The notes beneath the pieces are model-generated. The model searched no databases. It worked only from the letters and a program-made list of their open reading frames with translations, and was not told where the DNA came from. Shown piece by piece: positions 9,633 to 59,183 of a stretch of 64,000 nt of DNA. How positions within the stretch are numbered: position 1 is the first letter of the stretch; each line of letters begins with the position of its first letter. Made by a program: the position numbers and the translations under genes. Source of the DNA: an uncultured Pelagibacteraceae bacterium (GTDB taxonomy: Bacteria; Pseudomonadota; Alphaproteobacteria; Pelagibacterales; Pelagibacteraceae); contig CACHFP010000002.1 in assembly GCA_902579115.1 (NCBI GenBank), forward strand, positions 27,251 through 91,250. Reading direction: 5' to 3'.

Positions 9633-10529
9633 TTAATTAAAAAAAGTTCCTCGAATTCTTAATAATTCTCTAGATAACCCAGAATGCTCTTTAAAAGCTT
9701 TTCTTCCATGCAACCAAAAATAGTTATTTGAGAAAATTGTCGATCCAACAGGCAGAGGAAAGCTTATTTTATTTTTACTTTGTTCTAAAGCATCTGATAA
9801 TTTTTGCAAAAATAAACCTTGTTTCATATTTTTTGGTTCAGGAAATTGATCAATATAGGAAATAACTGGCTTACCATTTTTATCTTTTGAAAATACAGGA
9901 TGTTCAACTTTATAATCAACATTCTTGCTTTTAGGCGATCCCCATACAAAATCTTCTTGACCCACAGGATCATTACTTAAATCTTCCAAGTGCTCCCAAT
10001 CATCTAAATGTAAAATTACACTTTCTCCTCCACCGACATTCTGTTCCTCCATTTTTGTCATTATAATCCAATCAGTTTTCTCTTTTACATATGTTCCATC
10101 CGTATGAAGATCTAAATTTGTATATGCTTTTCTAAGATAAGAATCGCTACTATCTTGATGCTTTACATGAAATCTTGCATAGTATTTACCTGTCATTGAG
10201 TCAAAGTTAGGATTGCCAATTAGATAAGCAAGACCAGTAGAAAGCTTAACTAAAAAATCTTTATCAAATTTCTTATTTTTAATATCAGGGTCAACGATGG
10301 CAGTCCCAGTTTTTCGATCATTAAGAATTTCACATAAAGTTTTACTCAGTTTATTTTGAAATACCTCATCTAAACTTTTTGCCAAGCTAAATCTAGAAAA
10401 TGGTTTGTATTCTAAAGATAAAATTGAGTGTTTTTTAAAAGGAAAAATTAATCTATCAAGGTCGCTTTCATTTAACTTAATTACACGAACTCTTTTAGAA
10501 TGATTATGATCTGAAATCGAAAAACTCAT
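9633..10529 (-). CDS. glaH: CsiD/GlaH-like Fe(II)/2-oxoglutarate-dependent oxygenase (glutarate 2-hydroxylase family)
   Basis: Long collinear similarity to E. coli CsiD as I recall it: SLEYKPFSRFSLAK, YYARFHVKHQDSSDSYLR, LHTDGTYVKEKTDWIIMTKMEEQNVGGGESVILHLDDWEHL, YIDQF, FWLHGR. Confidence 0.75.
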   Translation of the reverse strand: MSFSISDHNHSKRVRVIKLNESDLDRLIFPFKKHSILSLEYKPFSRFSLAKSLDEVFQNKLSKTLCEILNDRKTGTAIVDPDIKNKKFDKDFLVKLSTGLAYLIGNPNFDSMTGKYYARFHVKHQDSSDSYLRKAYTNLDLHTDGTYVKEKTDWIIMTKMEEQNVGGGESVILHLDDWEHLEDLSNDPVGQEDFVWGSPKSKNVDYKVEHPVFSKDKNGKPVISYIDQFPEPKNMKQGLFLQKLSDALEQSKNKISFPLPVGSTIFSNNYFWLHGRKAFKEHSGLSRELLRIRGTFFN

Positions 10530-24575: not shown

Positions 24576-24742
24576 GGAACAATCTTAAATTAAACCGGGT
24601 ATTTGAACCATATTGTACACCTGGCATATGCCGAAGTACTAAAAAGGAGAAGATGAACAGAATTGAACTTCGTTCATTCTTCTCCAGAAAGACGGAGAAA
24701 AAATGAACGAAACAATAAGAGAAACAGTAAGGGGGAAAATCA
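24576..24742 (+). promoter_or_regulatory. Second part of the metY leader: possible SAM-V-like element, SD-sequestering hairpin and two mini-ORFs
   Basis: ATTGTACAC ... GTACTAAAAAGGAG resembles the SAM-V layout. GGAGAAGATGAAC (24646-24658) pairs with GTTCAT(T)CTTCTCC (24672-24685). uORFs lie at 24653-24706 and 24703-24750. Confidence 0.3.
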
Positions 24743-49027: not shown

Positions 49028-49975
49028 TTAAAGGATCTTATCACTAAATCCAAATGAAGTCATAAGTTCATTCCACTCTCTTTTTGATAATCCTGAGCTT
49101 TCAGGAGATACTTTTTGCCCTTTAATCATTTCTTGAATTACTTTTTTTCCCTTGGCTGATACATGAACAGCTCCAACTCTGTAATCTAAAAAAGCAGCGT
49201 GAGTAATGGGAACCCATTTTTTTACTGTTTCAAGCATAATTTCTGCATAAACTCGTATTTCATATTGTGCATGACTGTCTGCTCTAAGAAACAAAAAGTT
49301 CAATAAATTTAAAAGATCTGTTTTCCAATACCATTGGGTATAAGAATTTAAGGTCAAATTCATTCTAGCAAGTTCCCTCGCCAAACCAATTTTACTATCG
49401 TCAATGGTAGAACCATCATATCTTTCGTTAAGCATTTTTTCATAATTATCATAAGTTCTGGTGGCATCGTCTTTTAAAATTTTTAACACTTCTTCGGCTT
49501 GATCGCCGGTAATTAAATCTCCCCGTCCTTGACGATTAGAAGTTGATTGAGCTGATAATTGATCTTTCGACGGTATATAAAATTCTTTATCTAATATTGA
49601 ATATCTTGCTGAATATTCGTTTACATTTGCAGTTCTATGTCTAATCCACTGTCTTGCGATAAAGATTGGTAATTTAACATGATACTTTATTTCGCACATT
49701 TCAAACGGTGTTGAGTGCCAATGTCTCATTAAATATTTAATTAATCCCTCATCTGTAGAAACTTTCTTAGTTCCTTTTCCATACGAAACTCTTGCAGATT
49801 GAACTATCGAACTATCGTCTCCCATATAATCTACCACTCTTACAAAACCATGATCTAAAACTGGTAATGCTTCGTAAAGAATTCTCTCTAATTCAGGAGA
49901 AGTAACCCTTTTAGTTTGGTTTTTTTGAGCTTGTTGATCTGCAATTTCTTGCTTTTGTTCTTTAGTAAGTTTCAT
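49028..49975 (-). CDS. thyX: FAD-dependent thymidylate synthase ThyX
   Basis: ThyX signature [14 protein letters not shown]. Confidence 0.9.
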
Positions 49976-49988
49976 TTTGATTTATTTA

Positions 49989-50016
49989 TTGAATCTCTTA
50001 AAAAGAGTTTTATATT
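49989..50016 (+). promoter_or_regulatory. Candidate ssrA promoter
   Basis: TTGAAT (49989-49994), a 16-nt spacer, then TATATT (50011-50016). This would place the transcription start near 50022. Confidence 0.3.
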
Positions 50017-50020
50017 AATA

Positions 50021-50300
50021 GTGTTGGTTTTCCAACTATGACGATAAACGAATTTCGTAATAAACATCACGGACGTGGGGGCAGTACCCACCACCTCCAC
50101 CATTTACAACTTACGGGGGTGAATCAGGATCGACGGGTGTCTAAAGGCTGTTCTTTCGTACGAGATGGTTCCGACGTAACGGGCTAATTTATAAATGCAA
50201 ATCAAAAATTTGCACTTGCAGCTTAATTAACTAGTTTAATTAAGTTACGGGGTCCGGGGCACCTGGCAACAGAACGCCCCTGCGTATTGGCATTAACACT
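50021..50300 (+). ncRNA. ssrA: tmRNA gene, circularly permuted two-piece form (acceptor piece, then short spacer, then coding piece)
   Basis: The acceptor piece has the T-arm GTGGG/ggcagta/CCCAC and ends CACCTCCACCA at 50102. The coding piece starts GGGGGTGAATCAGGATCGACGGG at 50115. GGGGGTG pairs with CACCTCC and includes the G3-U identity pair. The tag ORF GCA AAT CAA AAA TTT GCA CTT GCA GCT TAA (50197-50226) encodes ANQKFALAA. The outer ends are uncertain. Confidence 0.8.
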
Positions 50301-50318
50301 TATTAATTCACAACTTTT
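50258..50318 (+). repeat. Repeat copy A: ssrA 3' end core plus right arm
   Basis: The 61 nt GGCACCTGGCAACAGAACGCCCCTGCGTATTGGCATTAACACTTATTAATTCACAACTTTT recur at 51732-51792 with 2 mismatches. It is followed by GATCACA twice at an 11-nt period (50327, 50338). Confidence 0.8.
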
Positions 50319-50376
50319 ATTAATTAGATCACAATAGGATCACACTGGAGAAAGACAAAATTAGTGAGCGGGGGAG

Positions 50377-50943
50377 TTATTTGTAAGCTTTATTTCCGAT
50401 CCACTCCATAAACTCAGATGTATAAACTCCGATATTTAAATTATTCTTAATATTCATATCTTTATGAAAGTTGTCGCAATACGCTGTAAATCTATCTCCA
50501 TTTTGGTTTTGAAACTTAAATCCACTTGTAAAACTTCTTCCAGTTTTATCCTGCATGTGAGGCTTGTTAGTTTTGGTTTCTTTTTTATAACCTTTAAATA
50601 AATTTGAAACGCTTTGCTCAACTTCTTTAAGTTTATTAATGCACTCATTATAATTCATAGCCATGCCTCCTCTAAGACCATCTATGATATAATTTTTATC
50701 TCCTTTTTTGTAATGAAAATTGATCCAATCATAGTTATTCGTTTTAATGTTAAATAAAACTGGGATGTATTTATCGTCCCGATAAAAACTTGTTTTATTG
50801 TTTTTAATTTTATCTTTGTCAAAAAATTTAAGGGCACTTTCCCCTATACTTAAACCTTCAATTTGAAAGTCTCTAATATCACCTGCCCAAGATGGAGTTA
50901 TTGAGCATAAACTTAAAATAACGATCACTAAAAGTTTTTTCAT
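50377..50943 (-). CDS. Secreted protein, island family member 1 (unknown function)
   Basis: Signal peptide MKKLLVIVILSLCSITPSWA, then GDIRDFQIEGLSIGESAL. It is paralogous to 54150-54746 and 54763-55332 and shares DKTG(R/K)S and a C-terminal W(I/L)..(K/E)A(Y/F)(K/R). Confidence 0.55.
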   Translation of the reverse strand: MKKLLVIVILSLCSITPSWAGDIRDFQIEGLSIGESALKFFDKDKIKNNKTSFYRDDKYIPVLFNIKTNNYDWINFHYKKGDKNYIIDGLRGGMAMNYNECINKLKEVEQSVSNLFKGYKKETKTNKPHMQDKTGRSFTSGFKFQNQNGDRFTAYCDNFHKDMNIKNNLNIGVYTSEFMEWIGNKAYK

Positions 50944-51363
50944 TTAACTAACTCTATATCCCTTTGCAAAAAAAACTTTATTGATAATATCAAAAAAATA
51001 ATAGGCCGTTTTATTATAAGTATATATATGAATGGTGCATTGAAATTTTGTATCTTCCTCTCTTAATTTTGTTTTTTGCCATTTATAACAAAGCTTATTA
51101 TCTTCTACCTTCCATTTTCCAATAATCTCACCTTCAGATTTAGAATATCCTAAATAATCTCCTTGTGAACTATGGGTTTCTTCAAAATAATTCTCATCAT
51201 AAAAATCATATCCGACAATCTTTTTATTGCTTAATGCTGTTTTAATTTCATAAGATTTAAGTTTTCTCAATTTGTTTATGTCAATCTTTGATAGATCTTC
51301 AAATGCAATTCCTGGGGTACAAAACAACAAACCTAGAACCAAGATCACTAAAAGTTTTTTCAT
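50944..51363 (-). CDS. Secreted hypothetical protein
   Basis: Signal peptide MKKLLVILVLGLLFCTPGIA. I recognised no family. Its stop abuts the next gene's start. Confidence 0.45.
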   Translation of the reverse strand: MKKLLVILVLGLLFCTPGIAFEDLSKIDINKLRKLKSYEIKTALSNKKIVGYDFYDENYFEETHSSQGDYLGYSKSEGEIIGKWKVEDNKLCYKWQKTKLREEDTKFQCTIHIYTYNKTAYYFFDIINKVFFAKGYRVS

Positions 51364-51630
51364 TTAACCCAACATATTCATCATCCATAAAGGAACACCA
51401 AATACAAAGCACCATGCTCCTAGTGGGCCAACCAGCGGCCAGATTAAAAAAGACATTGCTATCATCCAAGGGCTATCAAATTTAAAACCTAAATAGAAAA
51501 AATATAGATCTCCAAGAAATATGATTGCAATTATAGCCCATGTACCAAATACACCAACGCTAGCTGCTAGTCCTGCAAATAGATTTGAAAAAACGTTAGC
51601 TTTATTTTGATTTTTTCTTTTCATAATCAC
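51364..51630 (-). CDS. Small hypothetical membrane protein
   Basis: 88 aa with 2-3 TM segments. It has a GTG start at 51630 or ATG at 51624. Confidence 0.4.
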   Translation of the reverse strand: MIMKRKNQNKANVFSNLFAGLAASVGVFGTWAIIAIIFLGDLYFFYLGFKFDSPWMIAMSFLIWPLVGPLGAWCFVFGVPLWMMNMLG

Positions 51631-51632
51631 AT

Positions 51633-51792
51633 CATATCCGGACTCACTGGCGGACTCAATACGGACTCACCCAGCAAAGAAATAGCCGTTTTTTATAATC
51701 TAGAATTGTTGTATAACGTTAAAAGGTTCACGGCACCTGGCAACAGAACGGCCCTGCGTATTGGCGTTAACACTTATTAATTCACAACTTTT
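51633..51792 (+). repeat. Repeat copy B: left arm (three CGGACTCA repeats) + ssrA-end core + right arm (attP-like composite)
   Basis: 51633-51754 is 115/122 identical to 53545-53666. 51732-51792 is 59/61 identical to 50258-50318. Confidence 0.8.
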
Positions 51793-51832
51793 TTCATTTT
51801 GGGCACACATAGGTCACAGTGAATAAATTTTA

Positions 51833-52786
51833 TCACTCTAAATTTTTTAATCTTTTGTTAAATACAAAGTAAATTTTTTCAAGTTTTTCAATTAGCCATT
51901 CAACGTATTCATCCCATTTTTCCTCTTTATCAAAGAAACTATTCTCTTTCACAATTTTAATTCTTGAAGCAACTCTGTGAGGAAGCGGCTCCCAAAGAAA
52001 TTTTTCACCAAATTCTTTCTCGATTTTATCTTTTTCTTTTTCTAATATTTCAAAAATTTTTTGATCATCAACAATATATAATTCTGCAACAAGCCTATTA
52101 TCTCTTGCGTTAAAAACTGCATGAACTCCAATACCAGATACACCGCTTGCAAAAGTATGCCAATGTTGAGGTCTTGGCTTTCTTGTTGTTAAAGGTGTTT
52201 CTTCTCTCTCTCTTAATTTAGAAGTTAATCTCTCCCAAAAAGCTAATTGTTTAATTTTGGTATCACTTAGATTTTCAGTATCAATTTTTTGTGCTGCTGT
52301 TGAAACTTTTTTATACCAATTATTTGGTTTGCTTATTATATCAAATCTTGGTGCCATGCTTTCGCCTATCTTTAATACTTCGATCTGAACTCCAAAAAAA
52401 TTATACTCTTCTCCAGTAATTTTGTTTAACCAATCTAAAGTTGCTCTGTGTTCTTCATGAAATTTTGCAGCGACCCAAATTATAGTAGCTGCGTTTAATC
52501 CAGTTGCATAAGTTAATAATTGGCCAAGATGTTTATGGTCTGTTTTTTCTAATTGATTTTCTATTAATACCCAATTTCCACTTGCTTCATCTTTGCAGAG
52601 AATATCAGCACTAAAAGGACCAACATCTTTTTCTCTTGCTTCAACTATTAACTCGATACCAATCGCTTTGCTTAAAAGTTTAATGTTATCCTCTTTTGCA
52701 AGCCAAGGCGTAAACTCTGTGCCTTCGTGCTCCCAAATATCTCTTATCTCCACTTTTTCGATTTCTTTAAGATCAATTTTTTTCAT
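51833..52786 (-). CDS. PD-(D/E)xK nuclease-like N-terminal domain fused to a DUF4268-like C-terminal domain
   Basis: GPFSADILCKDEASGNWVLIENQLEKTDHKHLGQLLTY fits a D...E.K nuclease core of the NucS/DUF91-like type. The C-terminal half resembles DUF4268 as I recall it. Confidence 0.5.
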   Translation of the reverse strand: MKKIDLKEIEKVEIRDIWEHEGTEFTPWLAKEDNIKLLSKAIGIELIVEAREKDVGPFSADILCKDEASGNWVLIENQLEKTDHKHLGQLLTYATGLNAATIIWVAAKFHEEHRATLDWLNKITGEEYNFFGVQIEVLKIGESMAPRFDIISKPNNWYKKVSTAAQKIDTENLSDTKIKQLAFWERLTSKLREREETPLTTRKPRPQHWHTFASGVSGIGVHAVFNARDNRLVAELYIVDDQKIFEILEKEKDKIEKEFGEKFLWEPLPHRVASRIKIVKENSFFDKEEKWDEYVEWLIEKLEKIYFVFNKRLKNLE

Positions 52787-52792
52787 TTTTTA

Positions 52793-53536
52793 TTATTTAA
52801 TATCAAAATCTGCAATTATTGGATAGTGATCACTTAATGCAGAAGTTTCAGCGTTCTCCAATACTTCAATCTTTTGCAATTTATTGTATAAATCTTTGCT
52901 AGCAAACATATGATCAATCTGCCAAGGCACTTTATCCCGTCCGCTTTTATTTCTAAATGTTCGAACAAAGTTGGGGTATTTTTTAATTAAACAGTCTTCT
53001 AATAAAAAGTCCTCAATTCTTTCGAATATTATTTGTGATGTTCTCATACCTTTTCTCCAATACATGCCTTCAGTAGTATCCATTCGTTTATCTACATTAA
53101 AATCTCCTGCAAGAATAAAACTTTTAAATTTTTCATCAGACCAGCCTAAAAAGATAGGTGTTAGATCTGAGAGCATATTATGAATATTCGGCGCAACTGT
53201 TTTTTGGTTCTTAGATATTGCAGTTAAAATGCCGTAGAGATTGATAACAGCAATCTTCGTGTCTGCTAATATAATTTCTGAAACTATTAAAGATCCTTTA
53301 TATTTAGTATTAATTTCTGTTCTATTGATTTCTGTTCCGAAAGAAATAATGCAGTTCCCAAAATTTCTTTTTTCTCCATCAATCTGATTAATTTGATCGA
53401 AAAGAATATTTTTTTCATTAAGATTATTCGAAGCTTTAACTTCTTGAAGCAAATAGAGATCAGCTTTTAAAGAATTTTTTAAAACAAAATCCAACGTTTT
53501 ATCTCTTCCGTTAATATTCCAAGAAACTATCTTCAT
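52793..53536 (-). CDS. Endonuclease/exonuclease/phosphatase (EEP) family protein
   Basis: MKIVSWNINGR start, LQEVK, GDFN and C-terminal SDHYPIIADF, which are the canonical EEP/ExoIII-like motifs. Confidence 0.7.
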   Translation of the reverse strand: MKIVSWNINGRDKTLDFVLKNSLKADLYLLQEVKASNNLNEKNILFDQINQIDGEKRNFGNCIISFGTEINRTEINTKYKGSLIVSEIILADTKIAVINLYGILTAISKNQKTVAPNIHNMLSDLTPIFLGWSDEKFKSFILAGDFNVDKRMDTTEGMYWRKGMRTSQIIFERIEDFLLEDCLIKKYPNFVRTFRNKSGRDKVPWQIDHMFASKDLYNKLQKIEVLENAETSALSDHYPIIADFDIK

Positions 53537-53544
53537 TTAATCAA

Positions 53545-53666
53545 CATATCCGGACTCACTGGCGGGCACAATACGGACTCACCCAGCAAAGAAATAGACG
53601 TTTTTTATGATCTAGAATTGTTGTATAACGTTAAAAGGTTCACGGCACCTGACAAAAGAACGCCCC
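53545..53666 (+). repeat. Repeat copy C: left arm + ssrA-end core
   Basis: 122 nt with 7 mismatches to 51633-51754. The core GGCACCTGACAAAAGAACGCCCC lies at 53644-53666. Confidence 0.8.
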
Positions 53667-53701
53667 TTTTCGAATTATCATTTTTAGTATAAAAAAGATT
53701 T

Positions 53702-54070
53702 ATGAATTTTCAAAACTCAATTAAAATATGCTTTCAAAAGTTTGCCGATTTTAACGGAAGAGCATCTCGATCGGAGTTTTGGTATTTTTATCTATTCGCA
53801 ATTTTAGTTTATTTCATTACGATATTTATAGCTATTCAAATACCATTCTTTTTCGCAATAGCTATTTTATTTGCATTAATACTTTTTGTTCCTGCATTAG
53901 CTGTAACGGCAAGACGTTTGCACGATACCGGTAAATCTGGATGGTGGCAATTAACAGCTTACATCCCTTACGTTGGAATTATAGCTTCGATAATTTTAAT
54001 CGTTGTTTGGTGCACTGAAGGTGAGAAAAAGAAAAATAAATACGGAAAACCAATAAAATTTAAACGTTAA
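53702..54070 (+). CDS. DUF805 family inner membrane protein
   Basis: GRASRSEFWYFYLF and ARRLHDTGKSGWW motifs. It is the only plus-strand gene in the array. Confidence 0.7.
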   Translation: MNFQNSIKICFQKFADFNGRASRSEFWYFYLFAILVYFITIFIAIQIPFFFAIAILFALILFVPALAVTARRLHDTGKSGWWQLTAYIPYVGIIASIILIVVWCTEGEKKKNKYGKPIKFKR

Positions 54071-54071
54071 C

Positions 54072-54094
54072 GGTACTTAGCAACAGAACGCCCA
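54072..54094 (+). repeat. Repeat copy D: ssrA-end core only
   Basis: GGTACTTAGCAACAGAACGCCCA has 19/23 identity to the core. It starts 2 nt after the DUF805 stop. Confidence 0.6.
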
Positions 54095-54149
54095 TTTTAA
54101 TGACTTAGGACTCGCATTAAATGTCGAGTTCTAAAAAAAAAGCTAGGTA

Positions 54150-54746
54150 TTATTTAAAAGCTTCATATCTTAACCAATTTTCATATTCTTTTGAATATAA
54201 GCCTACACCTAAGTTATCTATCCATTGTTTTTCTTTTGTAATTTTTTTTGACCAGTCTACACAATCGATTACAATTATTTCTGATGTTTTTGAAAATGTT
54301 ATCTCTATATCTTTTTTTTTGCTTTTTCCAGTCTTGTCTCCTGGATGATTGTAAATGGATCCTTCTTTAATTTTAAGATTATCAAATGTGGCGTTTATTT
54401 TTTTTGAAATTTCTTTTTGTTTTTTTAAACAATCACCGAATGGCTTATTGTCAAAAAATATACCGCCTGAGATATTATAAATTTTAAAATTTTTATCGTT
54501 TTGTTTAAATGCAAACTGAATATTTTCATAAGTAGTGCCTTTAGATACAATATCAATTAAATAAAATTTTTTATTAGGGTAGTAAGACTTAAGTGCATTG
54601 CTTAACTCATCTTTGGTATAATAATTTAAAGCGCTATCACCGATACTCATACCTTCTATCTGAAAGTCTCTAATATCATCTGCTTGTGATGGGATTATAA
54701 AGTAAAAGCTTAGAAATATGATTACTAAAATTTTTTTCATATTCAA
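54150..54746 (-). CDS. Secreted protein, island family member 2
   Basis: Signal peptide, then DDIRDFQIEGMSIGDSAL, DKTGKSK and a C-terminal WLRYEAFK. Confidence 0.55.
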   Translation of the reverse strand: MNMKKILVIIFLSFYFIIPSQADDIRDFQIEGMSIGDSALNYYTKDELSNALKSYYPNKKFYLIDIVSKGTTYENIQFAFKQNDKNFKIYNISGGIFFDNKPFGDCLKKQKEISKKINATFDNLKIKEGSIYNHPGDKTGKSKKKDIEITFSKTSEIIVIDCVDWSKKITKEKQWIDNLGVGLYSKEYENWLRYEAFK

Positions 54747-54762
54747 TTATCCTAGAATAATT

Positions 54763-55332
54763 TTATCGATAAGCTTTATTTCTAATCCAAAAAAGAAGAT
54801 CTGTACTTGTCAAGCTTACGTTAAGTGGGGCTCCATACTTTGCTTTTAGATCTCCTTCATATTTGAAACATGCAGCATTTAAATTCCCACCATTTAACTT
54901 AAATGAAGTTTGAATAACCTTACTTTTACCGGTTTTATCAATTCCGTGTACTTTGTTATTTTTTTTTCCTTTTGTACTAACACTAGAACTGACATTTTTG
55001 ATGATTTTTTTTTGTTTCTTTGAACAGTCCTTAAAATTGTTGAATTTGATCTCACCAATAACTGCTTCGATTATATATTTTTGATCTTTAGATTTATAAA
55101 ATACAGAAATTGCATCGTATTCTGAAGAGGTTTTTGTAATTCGTGCATGAGTAAAACTTTTATCTTTATATAAGTCCACCTTAAAAGATTTTTTTATTTC
55201 TTCTTTGCTTAAATGTTTTAGTAAACTTTCACCAATACTCATTCCTTCAATTTCAATATCTTGAATATCATCCGCCTGAGATTGGAGCATGAAACATAAG
55301 CTTAGAGCGGTAATAGCTAAAAGTTTTTTCAT
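54763..55332 (-). CDS. Secreted protein, island family member 3
   Basis: Signal peptide MKKLLAITALSLCFMLQSQA, then DDIQDIEIEGMSIGESLL, DKTGKSK and a C-terminal WIRNKAYR. The ORF-track start at 55356 is a GTG that adds 8 residues and reaches into the repeat. Confidence 0.55.
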   Translation of the reverse strand: MKKLLAITALSLCFMLQSQADDIQDIEIEGMSIGESLLKHLSKEEIKKSFKVDLYKDKSFTHARITKTSSEYDAISVFYKSKDQKYIIEAVIGEIKFNNFKDCSKKQKKIIKNVSSSVSTKGKKNNKVHGIDKTGKSKVIQTSFKLNGGNLNAACFKYEGDLKAKYGAPLNVSLTSTDLLFWIRNKAYR

Positions 55333-55353
55333 CAGTCTCATCTTATTCGGAAA

Positions 55354-55526
55354 CACCTAAGAAAGAAATAGCCGTTTTTTATGATTTAGTAATGTTATAT
55401 AATGACTTCTTACGAAAGGAGTCGAAATGAGTGGTTTGGAAATATTAATTGTTGTTGCGGTTTTAATTGCGATAACTAATTGAAATGTGTTCTTGAGGTT
55501 AGGGGCACCTAGCAACAGAACGCCCC
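55354..55526 (+). repeat. Repeat copy E: partial left arm, about 95-nt insertion, ssrA-end core
   Basis: CACCTAAGAAAGAAATAGCCGTTTTTTATGATTTAGTAATGTTATATAATGAC parallels the left arm of copies B and C. The core GGCACCTAGCAACAGAACGCCCC lies at 55504-55526 (22/23). Confidence 0.65.
55427..55483 (+). CDS. Candidate 18-aa hydrophobic peptide (MSGLEILIVVAVLIAITN), type I toxin-like
   Basis: TATAAT at 55398-55403, AAGGAG at 55416-55421, a 5-nt spacer, then the ATG. The ORF is followed by the GGGGC...GCCCC hairpin of the repeat core. Confidence 0.35.
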   Translation: MSGLEILIVVAVLIAITN

Positions 55527-56198
55527 CTAGAATTTGTAAATTTCCTTCAATAATTGTTTTAATTCAATTTCATCTGTCCTGGCATATAAATCAAAAAGAA
55601 TTGAATTAAGAATATCTTTATAATGTCTATAATTTTTATCATTTCCAAAAGAGGAAAATTTCATCTGTGAAAGTTTTATCTCTGTCGGACTGAAGATTTG
55701 AGGAACTTTGATATAACCTACACTGCCATATAAATTTGATTTTTTTATCAAAAAATTAACGTCTTTGTTTTTTTTTGGCCAAATTTTATCTGGTATATTT
55801 TCATTTATTTTTTTTGCGAGGCCAATATTATCTTCATAAATTTGTTTATTATCATTATTTTGATAATCTTTTTTTATATTTATATCTAAAAAAAATTTCG
55901 GGTTATATATATCTAAATTTTTAATTATTATTAAGTCTGAAAAAATTGAGTCCATCTCAAAATTAATTTCTATTTTTTCAGCTTTAAAAATATTTTTGAA
56001 GTAGTTTTTATCTTTATTTAAAATCTCTATATCCTCTATTTTAACATTACCAGAATAATTAAAATTTAATTTTTTAATCTTTACTGGTCTTTCAACCCAA
56101 TTAGAAAATTTATTGATATAGAAGTTAGAAATAATTTTTTTATTAAAAAAAATTAAAATAGAAATAATTATGAGGACGATCACATTTATTCTCGACAT
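55527..56198 (-). CDS. Hypothetical membrane-anchored protein (weakly AsmA-N-terminal-like)
   Basis: N-terminal TM segment, then an Asn/Lys/Ile-rich beta-like sequence. I made no confident family call. Confidence 0.35.
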   Translation of the reverse strand: MSRINVIVLIIISILIFFNKKIISNFYINKFSNWVERPVKIKKLNFNYSGNVKIEDIEILNKDKNYFKNIFKAEKIEINFEMDSIFSDLIIIKNLDIYNPKFFLDINIKKDYQNNDNKQIYEDNIGLAKKINENIPDKIWPKKNKDVNFLIKKSNLYGSVGYIKVPQIFSPTEIKLSQMKFSSFGNDKNYRHYKDILNSILFDLYARTDEIELKQLLKEIYKF

Positions 56199-56204
56199 GA
56201 AAAT

Positions 56205-56286
56205 ATCATATCTAGACTCACTGGCTGGCGCAATACAGACTTACCAATTGTAAAAATGTTTAGAGCACTAGGCAACTGAACGCCTC
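56205..56286 (+). repeat. Repeat copy F: degenerate left arm + degenerate core
   Basis: ATCATATCTAGACTCACTGGCTGGCGCAATACAGACTTACC parallels ATCATATCCGGACTCACTGGCGGACTCAATACGGACTCACC. The core AGCACTAGGCAACTGAACGCCTC has 18/23 identity. Confidence 0.55.
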
Positions 56287-56649
56287 TTATTCTCTCATAA
56301 AATTTTTATAAATTAATCCGTAAATTAAAATATTAATAATTATCAGCGATATACCAAGATATATTTGAATTTCAGCAGTTAATCCCTCAGGATAAACAAT
56401 AGGAAAAAAATAGTTGTTAATAAAATCATTAGAATAGGTTGTTAACTCTCCTTTATACAAAAACCAATTTTCGAGATAAGTTAATGGACAAACAGAATTT
56501 GTAAGTTCTATATAAATTCCCCATAATAACGCTGGGAGGTGAATATAGATGATTTTAGAAAAAATAAAGAAGAACAGTCCACCAAAAATAACAAATAAGA
56601 TAAAAATTAAATGTGCAATTAAAGTAATATTTGCAAGTAACTCGTACAT
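56287..56649 (-). CDS. DUF2784 family membrane protein
   Basis: About 120 aa with 4 TM segments. The motif CPLTYLENWF is characteristic of DUF2784. Confidence 0.55.
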   Translation of the reverse strand: MYELLANITLIAHLIFILFVIFGGLFFFIFSKIIYIHLPALLWGIYIELTNSVCPLTYLENWFLYKGELTTYSNDFINNYFFPIVYPEGLTAEIQIYLGISLIIINILIYGLIYKNFMRE

Positions 56650-56672
56650 TTAAATATATTAACTAAAATTCT

Positions 56673-56695
56673 AGACAACAAGCAACATAACGTTC
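56673..56695 (+). repeat. Possible repeat copy G (very degenerate core)
   Basis: GACAACAAGCAACATAACGTTCT has 14/23 identity to the core. It again abuts a minus-strand stop codon (56696). Confidence 0.25.
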
Positions 56696-56935
56696 TTAAC
56701 TTATATAAAGATTTATTATTCCAATAAGATAAATACTTGCCAAACCACAGTTCAAAGCTACAAGAGATTTTTCATTCCACAACCAAGATATTATTGCTAA
56801 ACCGCTGTTACCTATTAGAAAAATATAACAATATAATGGATAAAACCCTAAGGCTGCCGTTATTGCACCCGCTAAAATTGTTAATGTTGAGCACCATGCC
56901 CAGAATTGAAATGGTTTAGGTTTTAGTTTTTTCAT
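56696..56935 (-). CDS. Small hypothetical membrane protein (3 TM)
   Basis: 79 aa and hydrophobic. It overlaps the upstream gene by 20 nt. Confidence 0.4.
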   Translation of the reverse strand: MKKLKPKPFQFWAWCSTLTILAGAITAALGFYPLYCYIFLIGNSGLAIISWLWNEKSLVALNCGLASIYLIGIINLYIS

Positions 56936-57263
56936 TTAACTCATATAAATAAGCTTCTGTATTAGATCCATCATCAAAATTTACTTTTGAAATTATTCTT
57001 TTATAGCTCTTTCCTTCAAATTCATCTATTTCAAACAACTTTTCCTCTAATTTTTCTGATTGAAGTAACATTCCATATATTTTTGATCCGTTTTTATTAA
57101 GCTTAAGACCTGGATAACCATAATCTGGACCTGATCCTATGTTATAAAGGTTACCTATTACGTGAGCTTTTTTCCATGTTCCTTTTAAACTTTTTAAAAT
57201 ATCTTCGTGTTGTTTGCCAATTTGAAGAGTTCCATAAACAAAAATAGAGTCTATCTTTTCCAT
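56916..57263 (-). CDS. Gamma-glutamylcyclotransferase-like (AIG2/GGACT family) protein
   Basis: The FVYGTLQ start motif, a family length of about 115 aa, and DEFEG. Confidence 0.6.
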   Translation of the reverse strand: MEKIDSIFVYGTLQIGKQHEDILKSLKGTWKKAHVIGNLYNIGSGPDYGYPGLKLNKNGSKIYGMLLQSEKLEEKLFEIDEFEGKSYKRIISKVNFDDGSNTEAYLYELNEKTKT

Positions 57264-57283
57264 CTAAACAAAAACTGAAAAAA

Positions 57284-57364
57284 TTAAAAAATATATTTAT
57301 CAATCATATAAAGAATTATGCCAGCCGCAACTCCTAGAAGAATCCAGTGAAAATTATTTTTCAT
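57284..57364 (-). CDS. Candidate 26-aa membrane peptide (MKNNFHWILLGVAAGIILYMIDKYIF)
   Basis: Below the ORF-track size cut-off. Its ATG overlaps the upstream stop as TAATG. It has one TM segment. Confidence 0.3.
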   Translation of the reverse strand: MKNNFHWILLGVAAGIILYMIDKYIF

Positions 57365-57741
57365 TACGCAACGAATTTATCTAAATTAGGCTCGAAATAA
57401 TTTGGCCCTTTCATAACTTTCCCTTTATCGTTATAAATCGGCTTACCATCCTCTCCTAATTTGCTCATGTTAGAGTTTTGTACTTCCTCGAAACATTTAT
57501 CCAAGTTTATTCCAAAGGCATGGCCAGCGCCATAAGTAACATATAAGATATCGGTTAAGGCATCTGCAACCTCTTTGATATCTTTCTTTTCAATTGCTTC
57601 TCTGAGTTCCCCTAATTCCTCTTTAATTAAATCGTATCTTAAAGAAGTGATTTTATCATTTGGAAATTCAGCTTTTTTCTTAACTTCTTGTCCAAAAGTT
57701 TCCATAAATTTTCTTACACTCTCAAAATTAGTCATTTTCAA
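57364..57741 (-). CDS. MazG-like nucleoside triphosphate pyrophosphohydrolase (all-alpha NTP-PPase)
   Basis: The EELGELREA ... EVADALTDILYV pattern of E.LGE/E..D metal-binding helices. Confidence 0.6.
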   Translation of the reverse strand: MKMTNFESVRKFMETFGQEVKKKAEFPNDKITSLRYDLIKEELGELREAIEKKDIKEVADALTDILYVTYGAGHAFGINLDKCFEEVQNSNMSKLGEDGKPIYNDKGKVMKGPNYFEPNLDKFVA

Positions 57742-57794
57742 TCCTTTTAATTTATAAATACTTAATTTAAGTGTATTATATCAAAGAATCAGTC

Positions 57795-59183
57795 ATGAAA
57801 TACAGAATAGAATTCGACAGTATTGGAAAAATTAAAGTGCCTGGTGATAAGTATTGGGGTGCATCTACTGAAAGATCTAACAAATATTTTAATATTGGAG
57901 ACTTTCTTGTCAGACCATTAGTTATCCACTCAATAGCAATAATAAAAAAAGCTGCTGCCATAGTTAATGCAAAAAATAAAGATTTAGATCCAAGACTAAG
58001 CAAATTCATAATAAAAGCTGCTGAAGAAGTCATAAAAGGGAAACTTGATAACCACTTTCCTTTGAAAGTTTGGCAGACCGGTTCTGGAACTCAAACCAAC
58101 ATGAACGTTAATGAAGTTATAGCAAATAGAGCAATTCAAATGATGGGTGGTAAAATGGGCTCAAAAAAACCTGTACATCCTAATGACCACGTTAATAAAT
58201 CACAATCTACAAATGATGTTTTTCCAACAGCTATGCATATAGCGATTGCATTGAAAACTAGAGAAAAGCTTCTACCTTCTTTAAAGTTGTTAGAGAAAGA
58301 AATTAAAAAAAAATCAAAAGAATTCAAAAATATAGTAAAAGTTGGAAGAACTCATTTACAGGATGCAACTCCACTTACTCTAGGACAAGAATTTTCTGGA
58401 TATCACTCACAATTAAAGAAATGTATTTTAAGAATAGAGGAAGCTATTAAAGAAATTTATAATTTAGCTCAGGGTGGAACCGCGGTTGGTACAGGATTAA
58501 ATACTAAAAGAAATTTCGATAAACAAATTATAAGAGAAATTAGTAAAATAACAAAACTTCCTTTTAAGCCTGCAAAAAATAAGTTTGCTGCTTTAGCGGC
58601 ACATGATGAAATTGTTAATTTCTCAGGTACATTAAATACTACAGCGGTATGCTTAATGAAAATCGCAAATGATATTAGATTTTTAGGATCTGGACCAAGG
58701 GCAGGTTATGGCGAACTTATTTTACCATCCAATGAACCTGGGTCTTCCATAATGCCAGGAAAAGTAAATCCTACTCAATCAGAGGCGGTTACAATGGTTT
58801 GTGTAAAGGTTATTGGAAATCATAATGGTATTACTATGGCAGGTTCGCATGGACATTTTGAATTAAATGTTTTTAAACCTCTTATAATTCATAATATTTT
58901 ACAATCGATTGAAATTATGAGCGACTCAGCAAAAGCATTTGCTCTTTATTGCGTCAAAGGAATAAAAGCAGATAAAAAAAGGATTAAAAATTTATTAGAT
59001 AATTCTTTAATGTTAGTTACTGCTCTTGCTCCAAAAATTGGTTATGATAAAGCTACTTTAATAGCCAAAACAGCTTACAAAAATGGGACTACTTTGAAAG
59101 AGGAAGTAATAAAAGCTGGTTTGATAAAAGAAAAAGAATACGACAAAATAATGAGTCCATTAAAAATGACTAAACCAAAATAA
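57795..59183 (+). CDS. fumC: Fumarate hydratase class II
   Basis: [16 protein letters not shown] signature, plus [11 protein letters not shown] and [14 protein letters not shown]. The ATG at 57795 is preferred over the GTG at 57771. Confidence 0.9.

What the first reader, a model, noticed from the sequence alone, without database searches (positions are those of the whole stretch)
50258..56695. tmRNA-anchored array of seven integrase-less mini-modules, each closed by a copy of the ssrA 3' end
Seen:
- The 23-nt string GGCACCTGGCAACAGAACGCCCC at the 3' end of the permuted tmRNA gene (50258-50280) recurs in the same orientation at six further sites.
- By hand count these are 51732 (1 mismatch), 53644 (2), 54072 (4), 55504 (1), 56264 (5) and a very degenerate 56673 (9).
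- The copies cut 6.4 kb into modules of 0.4-1.8 kb, each holding 1-3 small genes.
- For the minus-strand genes the motif abuts the stop codon (55527, 56287, 56696).
- Copy B (51633-51792) has shared sequence on both sides of the core, like an attP (arm-core-arm). Copy A has only the right arm and copy C only the left arm.
- That is the pattern expected if related elements integrated serially next to ssrA, each regenerating the gene end.
- No tyrosine or serine recombinase, transposase or phage gene is present anywhere in the array.

Inference: this is either a set of trans-mobilised mini-islands that use ssrA as attB, or an integron-like cassette system whose recombinase is encoded elsewhere. 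I do not know of a described system of sub-2-kb recombinase-less cassettes stacked at a two-piece tmRNA gene.
Basis: partly seen in the sequence, partly recalled or inferred. Interest (0 to 1): 0.85.

Follow-up and report, generated by a model that had tools for sequence, protein, structure and literature searches.

The report
Gene-cassette stack at SAR11 tmRNA gene
Next to the tmRNA gene of this SAR11 ocean bacterium lies a stack of tiny gene packets, each ending in a copy of the gene's last 23 bases; these are the footprints of repeated site-specific DNA insertion in an organism long thought to lack mobile elements.

Summary
The last 23 nt of the two-piece tmRNA gene (50258-50280) recur five times with 1-5 mismatches. 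A sixth, decayed copy (56673) is validated by homology, and a further copy was lost to a 49-nt deletion. All copies are on the + strand, directly downstream of ssrA.

In 80 related Pelagibacteraceae genomes and 60 metagenome contigs the same site is empty or holds 1-6 such modules. Insertion breakpoints fall exactly on the core. Of 116 core-to-core modules the median is 757 bp, and no core copy lies on the opposite strand.

Four window modules share ~100-nt and ~110-nt arms with phased GRNCWCA repeats. Together with the core these form a split, ~235-bp attP-like site, but with no integrase.

Rare relatives at the same site do carry a divergent tyrosine integrase: one intact integrated element, circular attP forms, and two truncated remnants.

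So serial site-specific integration at ssrA is strongly supported. Mobilisation of the integrase-less cassettes in trans is plausible but unproven. A true integron is not supported.

The kind is known (Dehalococcoides ssrA islands, tycheposon islands, SAR11 tRNA islands). The miniature scale, the conserved split attP and the two-piece tmRNA target are new. I rate it a new variant of a known kind, interest about 0.6.

The parts
49028..49975 (-). thyX, the conserved left backbone gene
   Evidence: Pfam Thy1, 2.9e-54. It is adjacent to ssrA in the Pelagibacteraceae loci L011-L090 that contain ssrA (75 of the 81 genome loci, window included).
49985..50284 (+). Two-piece (permuted) tmRNA gene ssrA, tag ANQKFALAA
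   Evidence: Rfam RF01849, 215.7 bits; ARAGORN.
50258..50280 (+). Core A: the 3' end of ssrA, which is the attB/attL core
   Evidence: Exact 23-mer. Identity with the copies starts at GGCACC and ends at GCCCC.
50281..50376 (+). Type A right (P') arm of module 1, with GATCACA repeats at 50327 and 50338
   Evidence: 78% identical to 51755-51827. The same arm occurs 19 times in related arrays, always right after a core.
50377..51630 (-). Module 1 cargo: 188-aa and 139-aa signal-peptide proteins and an 88-aa membrane protein
   Evidence: ORFs; no Pfam hits. A cassette with homologues of the 139-aa and 88-aa genes but other arms occurs in L116.
51633..51731 (+). Type A left (P) arm of module 1, with GGACTCA repeats at 51640, 51652 and 51663
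   Evidence: 94% identical to 53542-53643. More than 60 copies occur in metagenomes; a core copy follows wherever the contig extends far enough.
51732..51754 (+). Core B (1 mismatch)
   Evidence: Sub-threshold tmRNA match in Rfam.
51755..51832 (+). Type A right (P') arm of module 2, with repeats GGGCACA at 51801 and GGTCACA at 51812
51833..53536 (-). Module 2 cargo: a DUF4268 protein (317 aa) and an endonuclease/exonuclease/phosphatase-family protein (247 aa)
   Evidence: Pfam. The DUF4268 protein matches PADLOC defence candidate PDC-S11 at E 1e-116. The EEP (247-aa) gene next to a type A arm recurs in L174 and L152; L174 also has the same right arm.
53540..53643 (+). Type A left (P) arm of module 2, with repeats at 53552, 53564 and 53575
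53644..53666 (+). Core C (2 mismatches)
53702..54070 (+). Module 3 cargo: DUF805 membrane protein (122 aa)
   Evidence: Pfam, 4.3e-30. DUF805 cassettes recur in other arrays.
54072..54094 (+). Core D (4 mismatches)
54150..55356 (-). Module 4a cargo: two paralogues (198 and 197 aa) of the 188-aa secreted protein
   Evidence: 33-38% identity to the 188-aa protein. This is the commonest cargo family, with 18 copies in the sampled arrays.
55345..55395 (+). Truncated type A left arm whose core was lost by a 49-nt deletion
   Evidence: Alignment with L165.
55427..55483 (+). Module 4b: 18-aa hydrophobic peptide ORF (MSGLEILIVVAVLIAITN) with a strong Shine-Dalgarno sequence
   Evidence: The same kind of mini-cassette occurs at least 15 times in other arrays.
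55504..55526 (+). Core E (1 mismatch)
55527..56198 (-). Module 5 cargo: 223-aa membrane-anchored protein (weak DUF748 match at the N terminus)
   Evidence: Homologous cassettes in L160 and L164 carry a full type A arm.
56205..56263 (+). Decayed type A left arm (repeats kept, internal part deleted)
   Evidence: 76% identical to 51610-51671 (family D7).
56264..56286 (+). Core F (5 mismatches)
56287..56649 (-). Module 6 cargo: DUF2784 protein (120 aa)
   Evidence: Pfam, 3.1e-30. The same 409-bp cassette, bounded by cores, occurs in L011, L012, L023, L027 and in metagenome loci.
56673..56695 (+). Core G, strongly decayed (8-9 mismatches)
   Evidence: Position and left flank are homologous to the distal core of the DUF2784 cassette in relatives.
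56696..57741 (-). DUF6552 and GGACT genes (variable, no detectable core) and the MazG-like gene, the first conserved right backbone gene
   Evidence: Pfam. In empty sites the MazG-like stop codon lies about 10 nt after the ssrA core (L064, L066, L089).
57771..59183 (+). fumC, a conserved right backbone gene
   Evidence: Pfam Lyase_1, 1.5e-110; synteny.

Best explanation
The thyX-ssrA-[...]-MazG-fumC interval is an additive genomic island. It was built by repeated site-specific insertion of small circular elements into the 3' end of the two-piece tmRNA gene.

Proposed mechanism:
1. The attB is the last 13-23 nt of ssrA.
2. Each incoming element carries an attP made of a P arm, a copy of the ssrA end, and a P' arm.
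3. Recombination within the core regenerates a perfect ssrA and leaves a displaced core copy at the far end of the insert.
4. Later arrivals at the ssrA-proximal site push older modules outward, where their arms and cores decay by point changes and small deletions.

The window holds seven modules (originally eight cores), and none has a recombinase. Four of them (1, 2, 4a, 5) belong to one widespread cassette family, which I call type A. Type A has variable cargo of 1-3 genes, nearly always on the minus strand. Its ends are conserved: a ~100-nt P arm with three phased GRNCWCA repeats and a ~110-nt P' arm with two such repeats. Together these ends form a ~235-bp split attP.

Shown: the repeats, the polymorphism with exact breakpoints, the arm architecture, and integrase-bearing and circular relatives at the same attB.

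Inferred: that a tyrosine integrase binding the arm repeats does the recombination, and that type A cassettes rely on an integrase supplied in trans, either by rare autonomous elements or by an unlinked gene. The alternative for type A is that they are fixed, stripped-down remnants.
For: Repeats:
- Six significant same-strand copies plus one decayed copy lie only downstream of ssrA.

Population polymorphism:
- 75 of the 81 genome loci (80 species-level genomes plus the window) contain ssrA; of these 43 have only the ssrA core and 32 have 1-5 extra copies.
- There are no minus-strand copies in 141 loci.

Exact breakpoints:
- The flank after the last core in L055, L080, L086, L071, L077 and L057 equals the flank after the ssrA core in the empty sites L064, L066, L050, L051, L075, L033 and L056.

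Cassette granularity:
- 116 modules have a median of 757 bp, and 107 are 2 kb or shorter.
- ORFs inside them run 138 on the minus strand against 41 on the plus strand.

Type A arms:
- The left arm was found in 60 metagenome contigs next to dozens of unrelated cargo families. A core copy follows wherever the contig extends far enough.
- The right arm was found 19 times, always right after a core.
- Ten of the 12 GRNCWCA motifs in the 6.6-kb region lie in the arms, at 11-12-nt phasing.
- The repeat class co-varies between the P' and P arms of the same cassette in 12 of 15 cases (permutation p = 2.6e-4). It did not match across either of the 2 junctions that have both type A arms.

Integrase-bearing relatives at the same attB:
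- L057 has a ~9.6-kb element running ssrA core ... resolvase ... 431-aa integrase - arm repeats - partial core - backbone flank.
- L182 is a 7.4-kb contig with a 55-nt terminal overlap, which indicates a circle. L181 covers more than one unit with a period of 7769 bp. Both carry integrase - P arm (CAACGAAG x2) - AACAGAACGCCCC - P' arm (CAACGAAG x3).
- Truncated integrase remnants occur inside the arrays L072 and L125.

The integrase is a divergent tyrosine recombinase:
- Pfam PF00589 and PF13102 give weak hits.
- R238, K273, R350 and Y382 are invariant in 25 family members.
- Foldseek top hits are Tn1549 Int (E 1e-5), Cre and Flp.

Decay is visible in the window:
- A 49-nt deletion removed one core.
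- The module 5 arm is truncated.
- Mismatches rise with distance from ssrA.
Against: - No integrase for the type A arms was found. It is absent from the array and from the window (phmmer with XerD, gamma-delta resolvase and the L057 proteins). It is absent from 60 metagenome contigs with the arm, and IMG/VR has no matches to the arms.
- No circular form of a mini-cassette was seen.
- Modules 3, 4b and 6 have no arms at all, only a core, so they cannot be substrates of an arm-dependent integrase as they stand.
- The mismatch gradient is not monotonic: copy E has 1 mismatch.
- The arm repeats could equally be operator sites, because the left arm sits directly upstream of the cargo start codon.
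- The co-variation test is not corrected for shared ancestry.
Confidence: 0.8

Rival explanations
1. The array is purely a graveyard. Every module is what deletion has left of a once autonomous 7-10-kb integrase-bearing element, and nothing in the array is mobile any more.
For: - Intact (L057), truncated (L072, integrase residues 337-406) and nearly erased (L125) integrases occur in ssrA arrays.
- Small deletions demonstrably remove cores and arm parts in the window.
- Type D arms occur both with and without an integrase.
- SAR11 genomes are under strong streamlining (established knowledge).
Against: - Type A cassettes keep arms of near-constant length and sequence around dozens of unrelated cargo sets, with the cargo start codon flush against the arm.
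- No integrase or backbone-gene remnant appears in more than 75 instances.
- Independent random deletions should leave ragged ends.
- The P and P' repeat classes co-vary within cassettes, which suggests continuing constraint.
Confidence: 0.3
2. Once arrays exist, cassettes are gained, lost and shuffled by RecA-dependent homologous recombination. It would use the core plus conserved arms (up to ~235 bp) or the flanking backbone genes as portable homology, after uptake of foreign SAR11 DNA. No dedicated recombinase would be needed now.
For: - The arms average about 84% identity between genomes whose thyX genes are about 81% identical at the nucleotide level, which gives usable homology.
- The literature attributes much SAR11 island diversity to homologous recombination (cited in PMC11876622).
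- Arm-less cassettes such as DUF2784 still appear at different array positions.
Against: - Homologous recombination cannot create the first duplication of the core at an empty site.
- A 13-23-nt core is at or below the usual minimum for RecA exchange (established knowledge).
- Breakpoints are exact to the base at the core.
- Autonomous elements with an integrase and an attP exist for this site.
Confidence: 0.2
3. This is a true integron-like platform: a dedicated, unlinked IntI-type integrase captures promoterless cassettes through folded single-stranded attC-like sites.
For: - The cassette size (median 757 bp), one-gene content, strong orientation bias and stacking at one site resemble integron arrays.
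Against: - No integrase gene lies next to the platform; thyX and a glycosyltransferase lie upstream.
- The repeat is a copy of the tmRNA 3' end with lambda-like arms, not an imperfect palindrome.
- Junction B has no excess folding as single-stranded DNA (z = -0.31).
- The conserved arm lies at the 5' end of the cargo genes, not the 3' end.
Confidence: 0.04
4. The repeats are REP-like, terminator or regulatory elements, or an assembly artefact of a single-cell genome, and are unrelated to DNA insertion.
For: - The core contains the terminal GGGGC...GCCCC hairpin of tmRNA.
- The left arms sit where promoters and 5' UTRs would be.
Against: - Copies occur only downstream of ssrA and on one strand, in the window and in 141 loci.
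- The same architecture is present in complete isolate genomes (for example L044, L048, L052, L080), in SAGs and in metagenomes.
- Insertion polymorphism has exact breakpoints.
- The promoter and terminator scan shows no enrichment.
Confidence: 0.02

Closest known systems
Dehalococcoides ssrA genomic islands (McMurdie et al. 2011, PMC3146451)
   Same: [quoted passage not shown]
- The number varies between strains.
- 15 of 31 lack any integration module, and the authors proposed these to be cis-mobilizable elements.
   Different: - Those islands are far larger multi-gene islands carrying reductive-dehalogenase genes (38 rdhA in the 15 islands that lack integration modules), and they use a CcrB-like serine recombinase.
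- Their target is a one-piece tmRNA, in the T-loop region.
- Here the units have a median of 0.76 kb, the related autonomous elements use a divergent tyrosine integrase, the target is the end of the coding piece of a two-piece tmRNA, and one cassette family has conserved lambda-like arms.
Tycheposon-built islands of Prochlorococcus (Hackl et al., bioRxiv 10.1101/2020.12.28.424599)
   Same: - The host is a streamlined marine oligotroph.
- Islands sit next to six tRNA genes and the tmRNA gene.
- Partial tRNA copies separate successive elements.
- New arrivals push older ones into the island.
- Degenerate remnants and extra partial tRNAs are scattered through the islands.
   Different: - Tycheposons are defined by their own recombinase and replication genes and are several kb or larger.
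- No family of sub-2-kb integrase-less cassettes with conserved attP arms is described in the text I read.
- The host and the integrase family differ.
Cis-mobilizable elements (CIMEs) and accretion of integrative elements (reviewed in PMC5704250; cited in PMC3146451)
   Same: - Units are flanked by att sites and lack integrase and transfer genes.
- They lie in tandem with related elements at one tDNA site.
- They are proposed to move using an integrase supplied by a neighbouring or incoming element.
   Different: - CIMEs are known from Firmicutes ICE/IME systems and are mobilised by conjugation.
- Here no conjugation genes are present, the units are far smaller, and arrays reach 6-8 units.
- Mobilisation has not been shown here.
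Integron cassette arrays (established knowledge)
   Same: - One- or two-gene cassettes of about 0.5-1 kb are stacked at one site.
- Gene orientation is strongly biased.
- The cassettes carry no recombinase.
- The newest cassettes appear to lie next to the insertion point.
   Different: - There is no adjacent intI, attI or Pc.
- The recombination sites are copies of the tmRNA end with double-stranded lambda-type arms, not folded attC sites.
- The conserved arm lies upstream of the cargo genes, not downstream.
SAR11 flexible islands at tRNA/tmRNA genes (Microbiome 2025, PMC11796062)
   Same: - Same organism group.
- The paper reports seven islands linked to tRNA genes and one to the tmRNA gene.
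[quoted passage not shown]
- It finds no canonical mobile elements and only one integrase.
   Different: - That paper does not describe repeats at the tmRNA island, the arm families, the array depth or the integrase-bearing and circular relatives.
VEIMEs, marine phage satellites integrated in Pelagibacter (Eppley et al. 2022, PMC9618062; Biller et al. 2025, PMC11876622)
   Same: - Small integrative elements with tyrosine integrases are found as concatemers and integrated in Pelagibacter genomes.
- The 7.4-9.6-kb integrase-plus-resolvase elements found here (L057, L181, L182) have a comparable gene set, and one contig (L181) spans more than one unit length.
   Different: - I could not test identity with published VEIME modules.
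- The integrase family found here has no relative in IMG/VR or in GenBank phages.
- The window itself contains none of these elements, only integrase-less cassettes.

Membership tests
tDNA-anchored integrative island (Islander definition, PMC4383910) | Integration into a tRNA or tmRNA gene, with the island restoring the gene end | tested here: met
   The ssrA-proximal core is perfect in the window and in nearly all relatives. Clades with a native variant keep that variant.
tDNA-anchored integrative island (Islander definition, PMC4383910) | A displaced 3' fragment of the tDNA, in direct orientation, marks the distal end | tested here: met
   All copies are on the + strand and downstream of ssrA, and breakpoints are exact against empty sites.
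tDNA-anchored integrative island (Islander definition, PMC4383910) | Each island has its own integrase gene | tested here: not met
   None in the window array. It is met only in the rare relative L057, with remnants in L072 and L125.
tDNA-anchored integrative island (Islander definition, PMC4383910) | An attP of about 250 bp with integrase arm sites on both sides of the core | tested here: inconclusive
   The type A arms plus the core span about 235 bp, with 3 + 2 phased direct repeats. The type D attP is seen intact in circular elements. Binding by an integrase was not tested.
Cis-mobilizable element (CIME) | Flanked by attL- and attR-type sites derived from a related autonomous element | tested here: met
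   Modules 1 and 2 have a P' arm, cargo, a P arm and a core. For type D arms the autonomous counterpart is known.
Cis-mobilizable element (CIME) | No integrase, excision or transfer genes | tested here: met
   Pfam on all array proteins.
Cis-mobilizable element (CIME) | Excision or transfer driven by an element supplying the integrase | not testable with these tools
   This needs PCR or long reads for circles, or genetics. No circular mini-cassette was found among the fetched contigs.
Integron | An IntI integrase gene with attI and Pc next to the array | tested here: not met
   Upstream are ssrA, thyX and a family-2 glycosyltransferase. No recombinase was detected in the window.
Integron | Cassettes end in attC sites that fold as imperfect hairpins | tested here: not met
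   Junction B folded as single-stranded DNA gives -16.8 kcal/mol and z = -0.31 against shuffles. The repeat is a tmRNA fragment.
Tycheposon | Inserted at a tRNA or tmRNA gene, flanked by a partial tDNA repeat | tested here: met
Tycheposon | The element carries its own tyrosine recombinase and replication genes | tested here: not met
   Absent from the window modules. L057-type relatives have an integrase, a resolvase, a weak Rep_1 match and a clamp-like gene, but relatedness to tycheposon proteins was not tested.
REP/BIME-like dispersed repeat | Many copies scattered through the genome on both strands | tested here: not met
   The 64-kb window has no copy outside the array. There are no minus-strand copies and none upstream of ssrA in 141 loci. 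Whole genomes could not be scanned.

The most novel reading that the evidence does not exclude
Type A cassettes are a living, integron-like gene-cassette system of SAR11. They would be minimal mobile units consisting only of cargo plus a split ~235-bp attP with phased arm sites. An integrase encoded elsewhere, on a rare helper element or an unlinked chromosomal gene, would excise them and reinsert them at the end of the two-piece tmRNA gene. On this reading the most abundant bacterium in the ocean continually swaps single genes, including defence genes and secreted proteins, through one dedicated platform.
Probability: 0.35. Interest if true: 0.8.

Novelty: new variant of a known kind. Interest (0 to 1): 0.6.

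Why it matters
SAR11 is usually described as nearly free of mobile elements, and how it acquires its very large flexible gene pool is an open question.

This locus shows one concrete route that can be tested. A single attB at the tmRNA gene is empty in some genomes and holds up to six or more one-gene cassettes in others. Cargo includes restriction-modification systems, a PADLOC defence candidate and many secreted or membrane proteins.

The work also turned up a large, previously unannotated family of divergent tyrosine integrases on 7-10-kb circular elements in Pelagibacteraceae (453 protein clusters). These elements target either the ssrA end or the groEL end.

The integrase-less cassette family has conserved attP-like ends. 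If it is moved in trans, it would be a minimal mobile unit between an integron cassette and a cis-mobilizable island. It would also give defined sequences (core, arms, integrase) for experiments in cultured SAR11.

Tried and rejected
- IMG/VR scans with the left arm, the right arm and two core patterns found only host tmRNA genes or unrelated GC-rich hits. No pelagiphage attP turned up.
- tblastn of the L057 integrase against GenBank phages gave no match. A search for relatives in IMG/VR found none.
Gamma-delta resolvase did find the resolvases of L057 and L074.
- Sequence and profile searches of the integrase family against the PDB found nothing. Only the fold search did.
- I looked for circular mini-cassettes by terminal overlap. 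The apparent repeat in L116 was two paralogous signal-peptide coding stretches, not a circle.
- The sigma-70 promoter and terminator scan gave counts equal to shuffles, so it gives no support either way for the left arm being a promoter.
- The attC-like folding test of junction B was negative.
- A permissive Rfam scan of the array found only tmRNA fragments.
- Three more integrase subfamilies were sampled in the hope of finding one next to a type A arm. All target the groEL 3' end instead.
- Williams 2003, 'Traffic at the tmRNA gene', is not held in the library.

Full report
**1. The observation**

ARAGORN and Rfam both call a permuted alpha-proteobacterial tmRNA gene at about 49985-50284. The 23-mer GGCACCTGGCAACAGAACGCCCC is its 3' end.

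A mismatch scan of the whole 64-kb window finds these copies (mismatches in brackets): 50258 (0), 51732 (1), 53644 (2), 54072 (4), 55504 (1), 56264 (5) and 56674 (8). All are on the + strand, and nothing else matches at 8 or fewer mismatches on either strand. Shuffles give 0 matches at 6 or fewer mismatches and 0.4 at 8 or fewer.

A ~100-nt left arm is shared by copies B and C at 94% identity. A right arm is shared by copies A and B at 78%. The stop codons at 55527, 56287 and 56696 abut cores. No array protein has a recombinase, transposase or phage domain.

Two refinements follow.
- The weak seventh copy is genuine. It lies 409 nt after copy F, which is the core-to-core length of the DUF2784 cassette in four related genomes, and it shares their left flank.
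- 'Module 4' is two cassettes. Alignment with metagenome locus L165 shows that a 49-nt deletion removed the end of a left arm together with its core at about 55395.

**2. Source and surroundings**

The window is from a SAR11 single-cell genome, GCA_902529735.1. thyX lies upstream of ssrA. Downstream of the array lie a MazG-like gene and fumC.

**3. Comparative evidence**

I fetched the thyX neighbourhood from 80 species-level Pelagibacteraceae genomes. thyX-ssrA adjacency is conserved.

Downstream there are two backbones: MazG-fumC, or another conserved gene set. Between ssrA and the backbone the content is extremely variable.
- Of the 75 genome loci that contain ssrA, 43 have only the ssrA core and 32 have 1-5 further copies.
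- Some sites are empty (L064, L066, L089; L033, L050, L051, L056, L075). In these the backbone begins within about 10 nt of the core.
- In occupied sites the sequence after the last core copy equals the empty-site flank from the first base. Examples are L055 and L080 against L064 and L066, and L086, L071, L077 and L057 against L050, L051, L033 and L056.

Across 141 loci there is not one core copy on the opposite strand. The 116 core-to-core modules have a median length of 757 bp, and 107 are 2 kb or shorter. Most hold one gene. ORFs inside them run 138 on the minus strand against 41 on the plus strand.

Cargo elsewhere includes type I and type II restriction-modification systems, peptidases, TerB-DnaJ and many signal-peptide proteins. 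In the window the DUF4268 protein of module 2 matches PADLOC defence candidate PDC-S11 at E 1e-116.

**4. The arms**

The sequences to the left of non-ssrA cores fall into families. Each family has 2-4 direct repeats of an 8-10-nt motif some 40-100 nt from the core.

The window's family (type A) was found in 60 metagenome contigs by an exact 34-nt pattern. A core copy follows wherever the contig extends far enough, the arm is flush against the start of a minus-strand cargo gene, and the cargo comes from dozens of unrelated families.

Its partner is a ~110-nt right arm, found 19 times and always directly after a core. It carries two repeats of the same motif family.

In the window, 10 of the 12 GRNCWCA motifs in the 6.6-kb region lie in these arms at 11-12-nt phasing.

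P arm plus core plus P' arm add up to about 235 bp. That is the size and layout of a lambda-type attP, which Islander describes as ~250 bp.

The repeat variant (GATCACA, GGACTCA or GGGCACA) co-varies between the P' and P arms of the same cassette in 12 of 15 cases (permutation p = 2.6e-4, uncorrected for ancestry). It did not match across either of the two junctions that have both arms. This is what one expects if the cassette, not the junction, is the unit that carries a contiguous attP in a circular form.

The junction does not fold like an attC. A permissive Rfam scan sees only tmRNA fragments there.

**5. Integrase-bearing relatives**

One genome, L057, has a ~9.6-kb element at the same site. 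It contains a resolvase (PF00239, 1.8e-24), a clamp-like protein and, at its distal end, a 431-aa protein with weak integrase matches. After that protein come direct repeats (CTCAACGAAG x2), a partial core (..AACAGAACGCCCC) and the empty-site flank.

This protein belongs to a large marine family of 453 clusters, annotated 'hypothetical' in Pelagibacter genomes. Several lines identify it as a divergent tyrosine recombinase.
- R238, K273, R350 and Y382 are invariant in 25 members.
- An AlphaFold model (pLDDT 75) hits the Tn1549 integrase, Cre and Flp first.

Contigs carrying close homologues show the free form: integrase - P arm - AACAGAACGCCCC - P' arm (CAACGAAG x3) - other element genes. One is a 7.4-kb contig with a 55-nt terminal overlap, which indicates a circle. 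Another covers 1.6 unit lengths.

Truncated integrase remnants lie inside the arrays L072 and L125. The same arm type also occurs without any integrase. Other subfamilies of the integrase target the 3' end of groEL.

**6. Mechanism**

Shown:
- The ssrA 3' end is an insertion site used many times.
- Insertions duplicate the core.
- Autonomous circular elements with an attP for this site exist.
- Decay by deletion happens.

Inferred:
- A tyrosine integrase that binds the arm repeats catalyses the exchange within the core.
- New insertions go next to ssrA and push older ones outward.
- Type A cassettes, which have complete attP-like ends but no integrase or remnant in more than 75 instances, depend on an integrase acting in trans.

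I could not find that integrase or a circular mini-cassette.

**7. Rivals**

- A pure graveyard of decayed elements explains type D modules well. It explains poorly the uniform ends of type A around diverse cargo.
- RecA-mediated exchange using the arms as homology probably contributes to shuffling. It cannot create the first core duplication or the base-exact breakpoints.
- A strict integron, and a REP-like or artefactual origin, are excluded by tests.

**8. Comparison and novelty**

Stacks of islands at ssrA bounded by copies of its 3' end, half of them lacking integration genes, are described for Dehalococcoides. Stacking with partial tRNA copies and remnants is described for Prochlorococcus tycheposon islands. 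SAR11 islands linked to tRNA and tmRNA genes, with partial tRNA repeats, have been noted.

New here are:
- the integron-like granularity;
- a cassette family defined by conserved split-attP ends without a recombinase;
- arrays of 6-8 units, whereas Islander lists only 4 tandems of three or more among 3919 islands and requires an integrase per unit;
- the target at the end of the coding piece of a two-piece tmRNA;
- the link to an unannotated integrase family.

I file it as a new variant of a known kind, with interest 0.6.

Noticed in passing
window 55427-55483 (+); also L015, L016, L026, L130, L141, L143, L148, L151, L153, L154, L155, L161, L165: A recurrent mini-cassette of 120-200 bp encodes a 15-22-aa very hydrophobic peptide. 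In the window the peptide is MSGLEILIVVAVLIAITN. It has a strong Shine-Dalgarno sequence, lies on the same strand as ssrA, and ends about 19-20 nt before a core copy that keeps the full terminal tmRNA hairpin. It may be a small membrane peptide or a type I toxin-like gene; its function is unknown.
   Followed up: partly
window 51833-53536 (-): The DUF4268 protein matches PADLOC phage-defence candidate PDC-S11 over its full length (E 1e-116). It is paired with an endonuclease/exonuclease/phosphatase-family protein. The EEP gene next to a type A arm recurs in metagenome loci L174 and L152.
   Followed up: partly
L176-L180, L187-L203 (metagenome and Pelagibacteraceae contigs): Relatives of the ssrA-targeting integrase sit at the end of 7-10-kb elements (resolvase plus small ORFs) inserted at the 3' end of groEL and its terminator. 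Their own arm repeats follow directly after the integrase stop codon. L177 holds two such elements in tandem.
   Followed up: partly
L004 (IMG/VR UViG_3300035696_000020, about 9650-9670): A GC-rich 104-kb viral contig with 11 tRNA genes carries a 38-nt stretch almost identical to the end of alpha-proteobacterial tmRNA, but no full tmRNA gene. It may be an attP for a tmRNA-integrating phage of another alpha-proteobacterium.
   Followed up: no
window 50377-50943, 54150-54746, 54763-55356 (-): Three paralogues of a ~190-aa signal-peptide protein family with no Pfam match sit in two different modules. This family is the commonest cargo in the sampled arrays, with 18 copies, and the N-terminal coding stretch is conserved at the DNA level.
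   Followed up: partly
window 24588-24652 (+): A SAM-V riboswitch (Rfam RF01826, 72 bits), typical of SAR11.
   Followed up: no
L028, L044, L021, L082 (arrays in other SAR11 genomes): The few large modules (4.7-7.5 kb) between core copies carry type I or type II restriction-modification systems, or an HATPase plus sigma-70-region-4 protein pair. The ssrA array therefore doubles as a defence island.
   Followed up: partly
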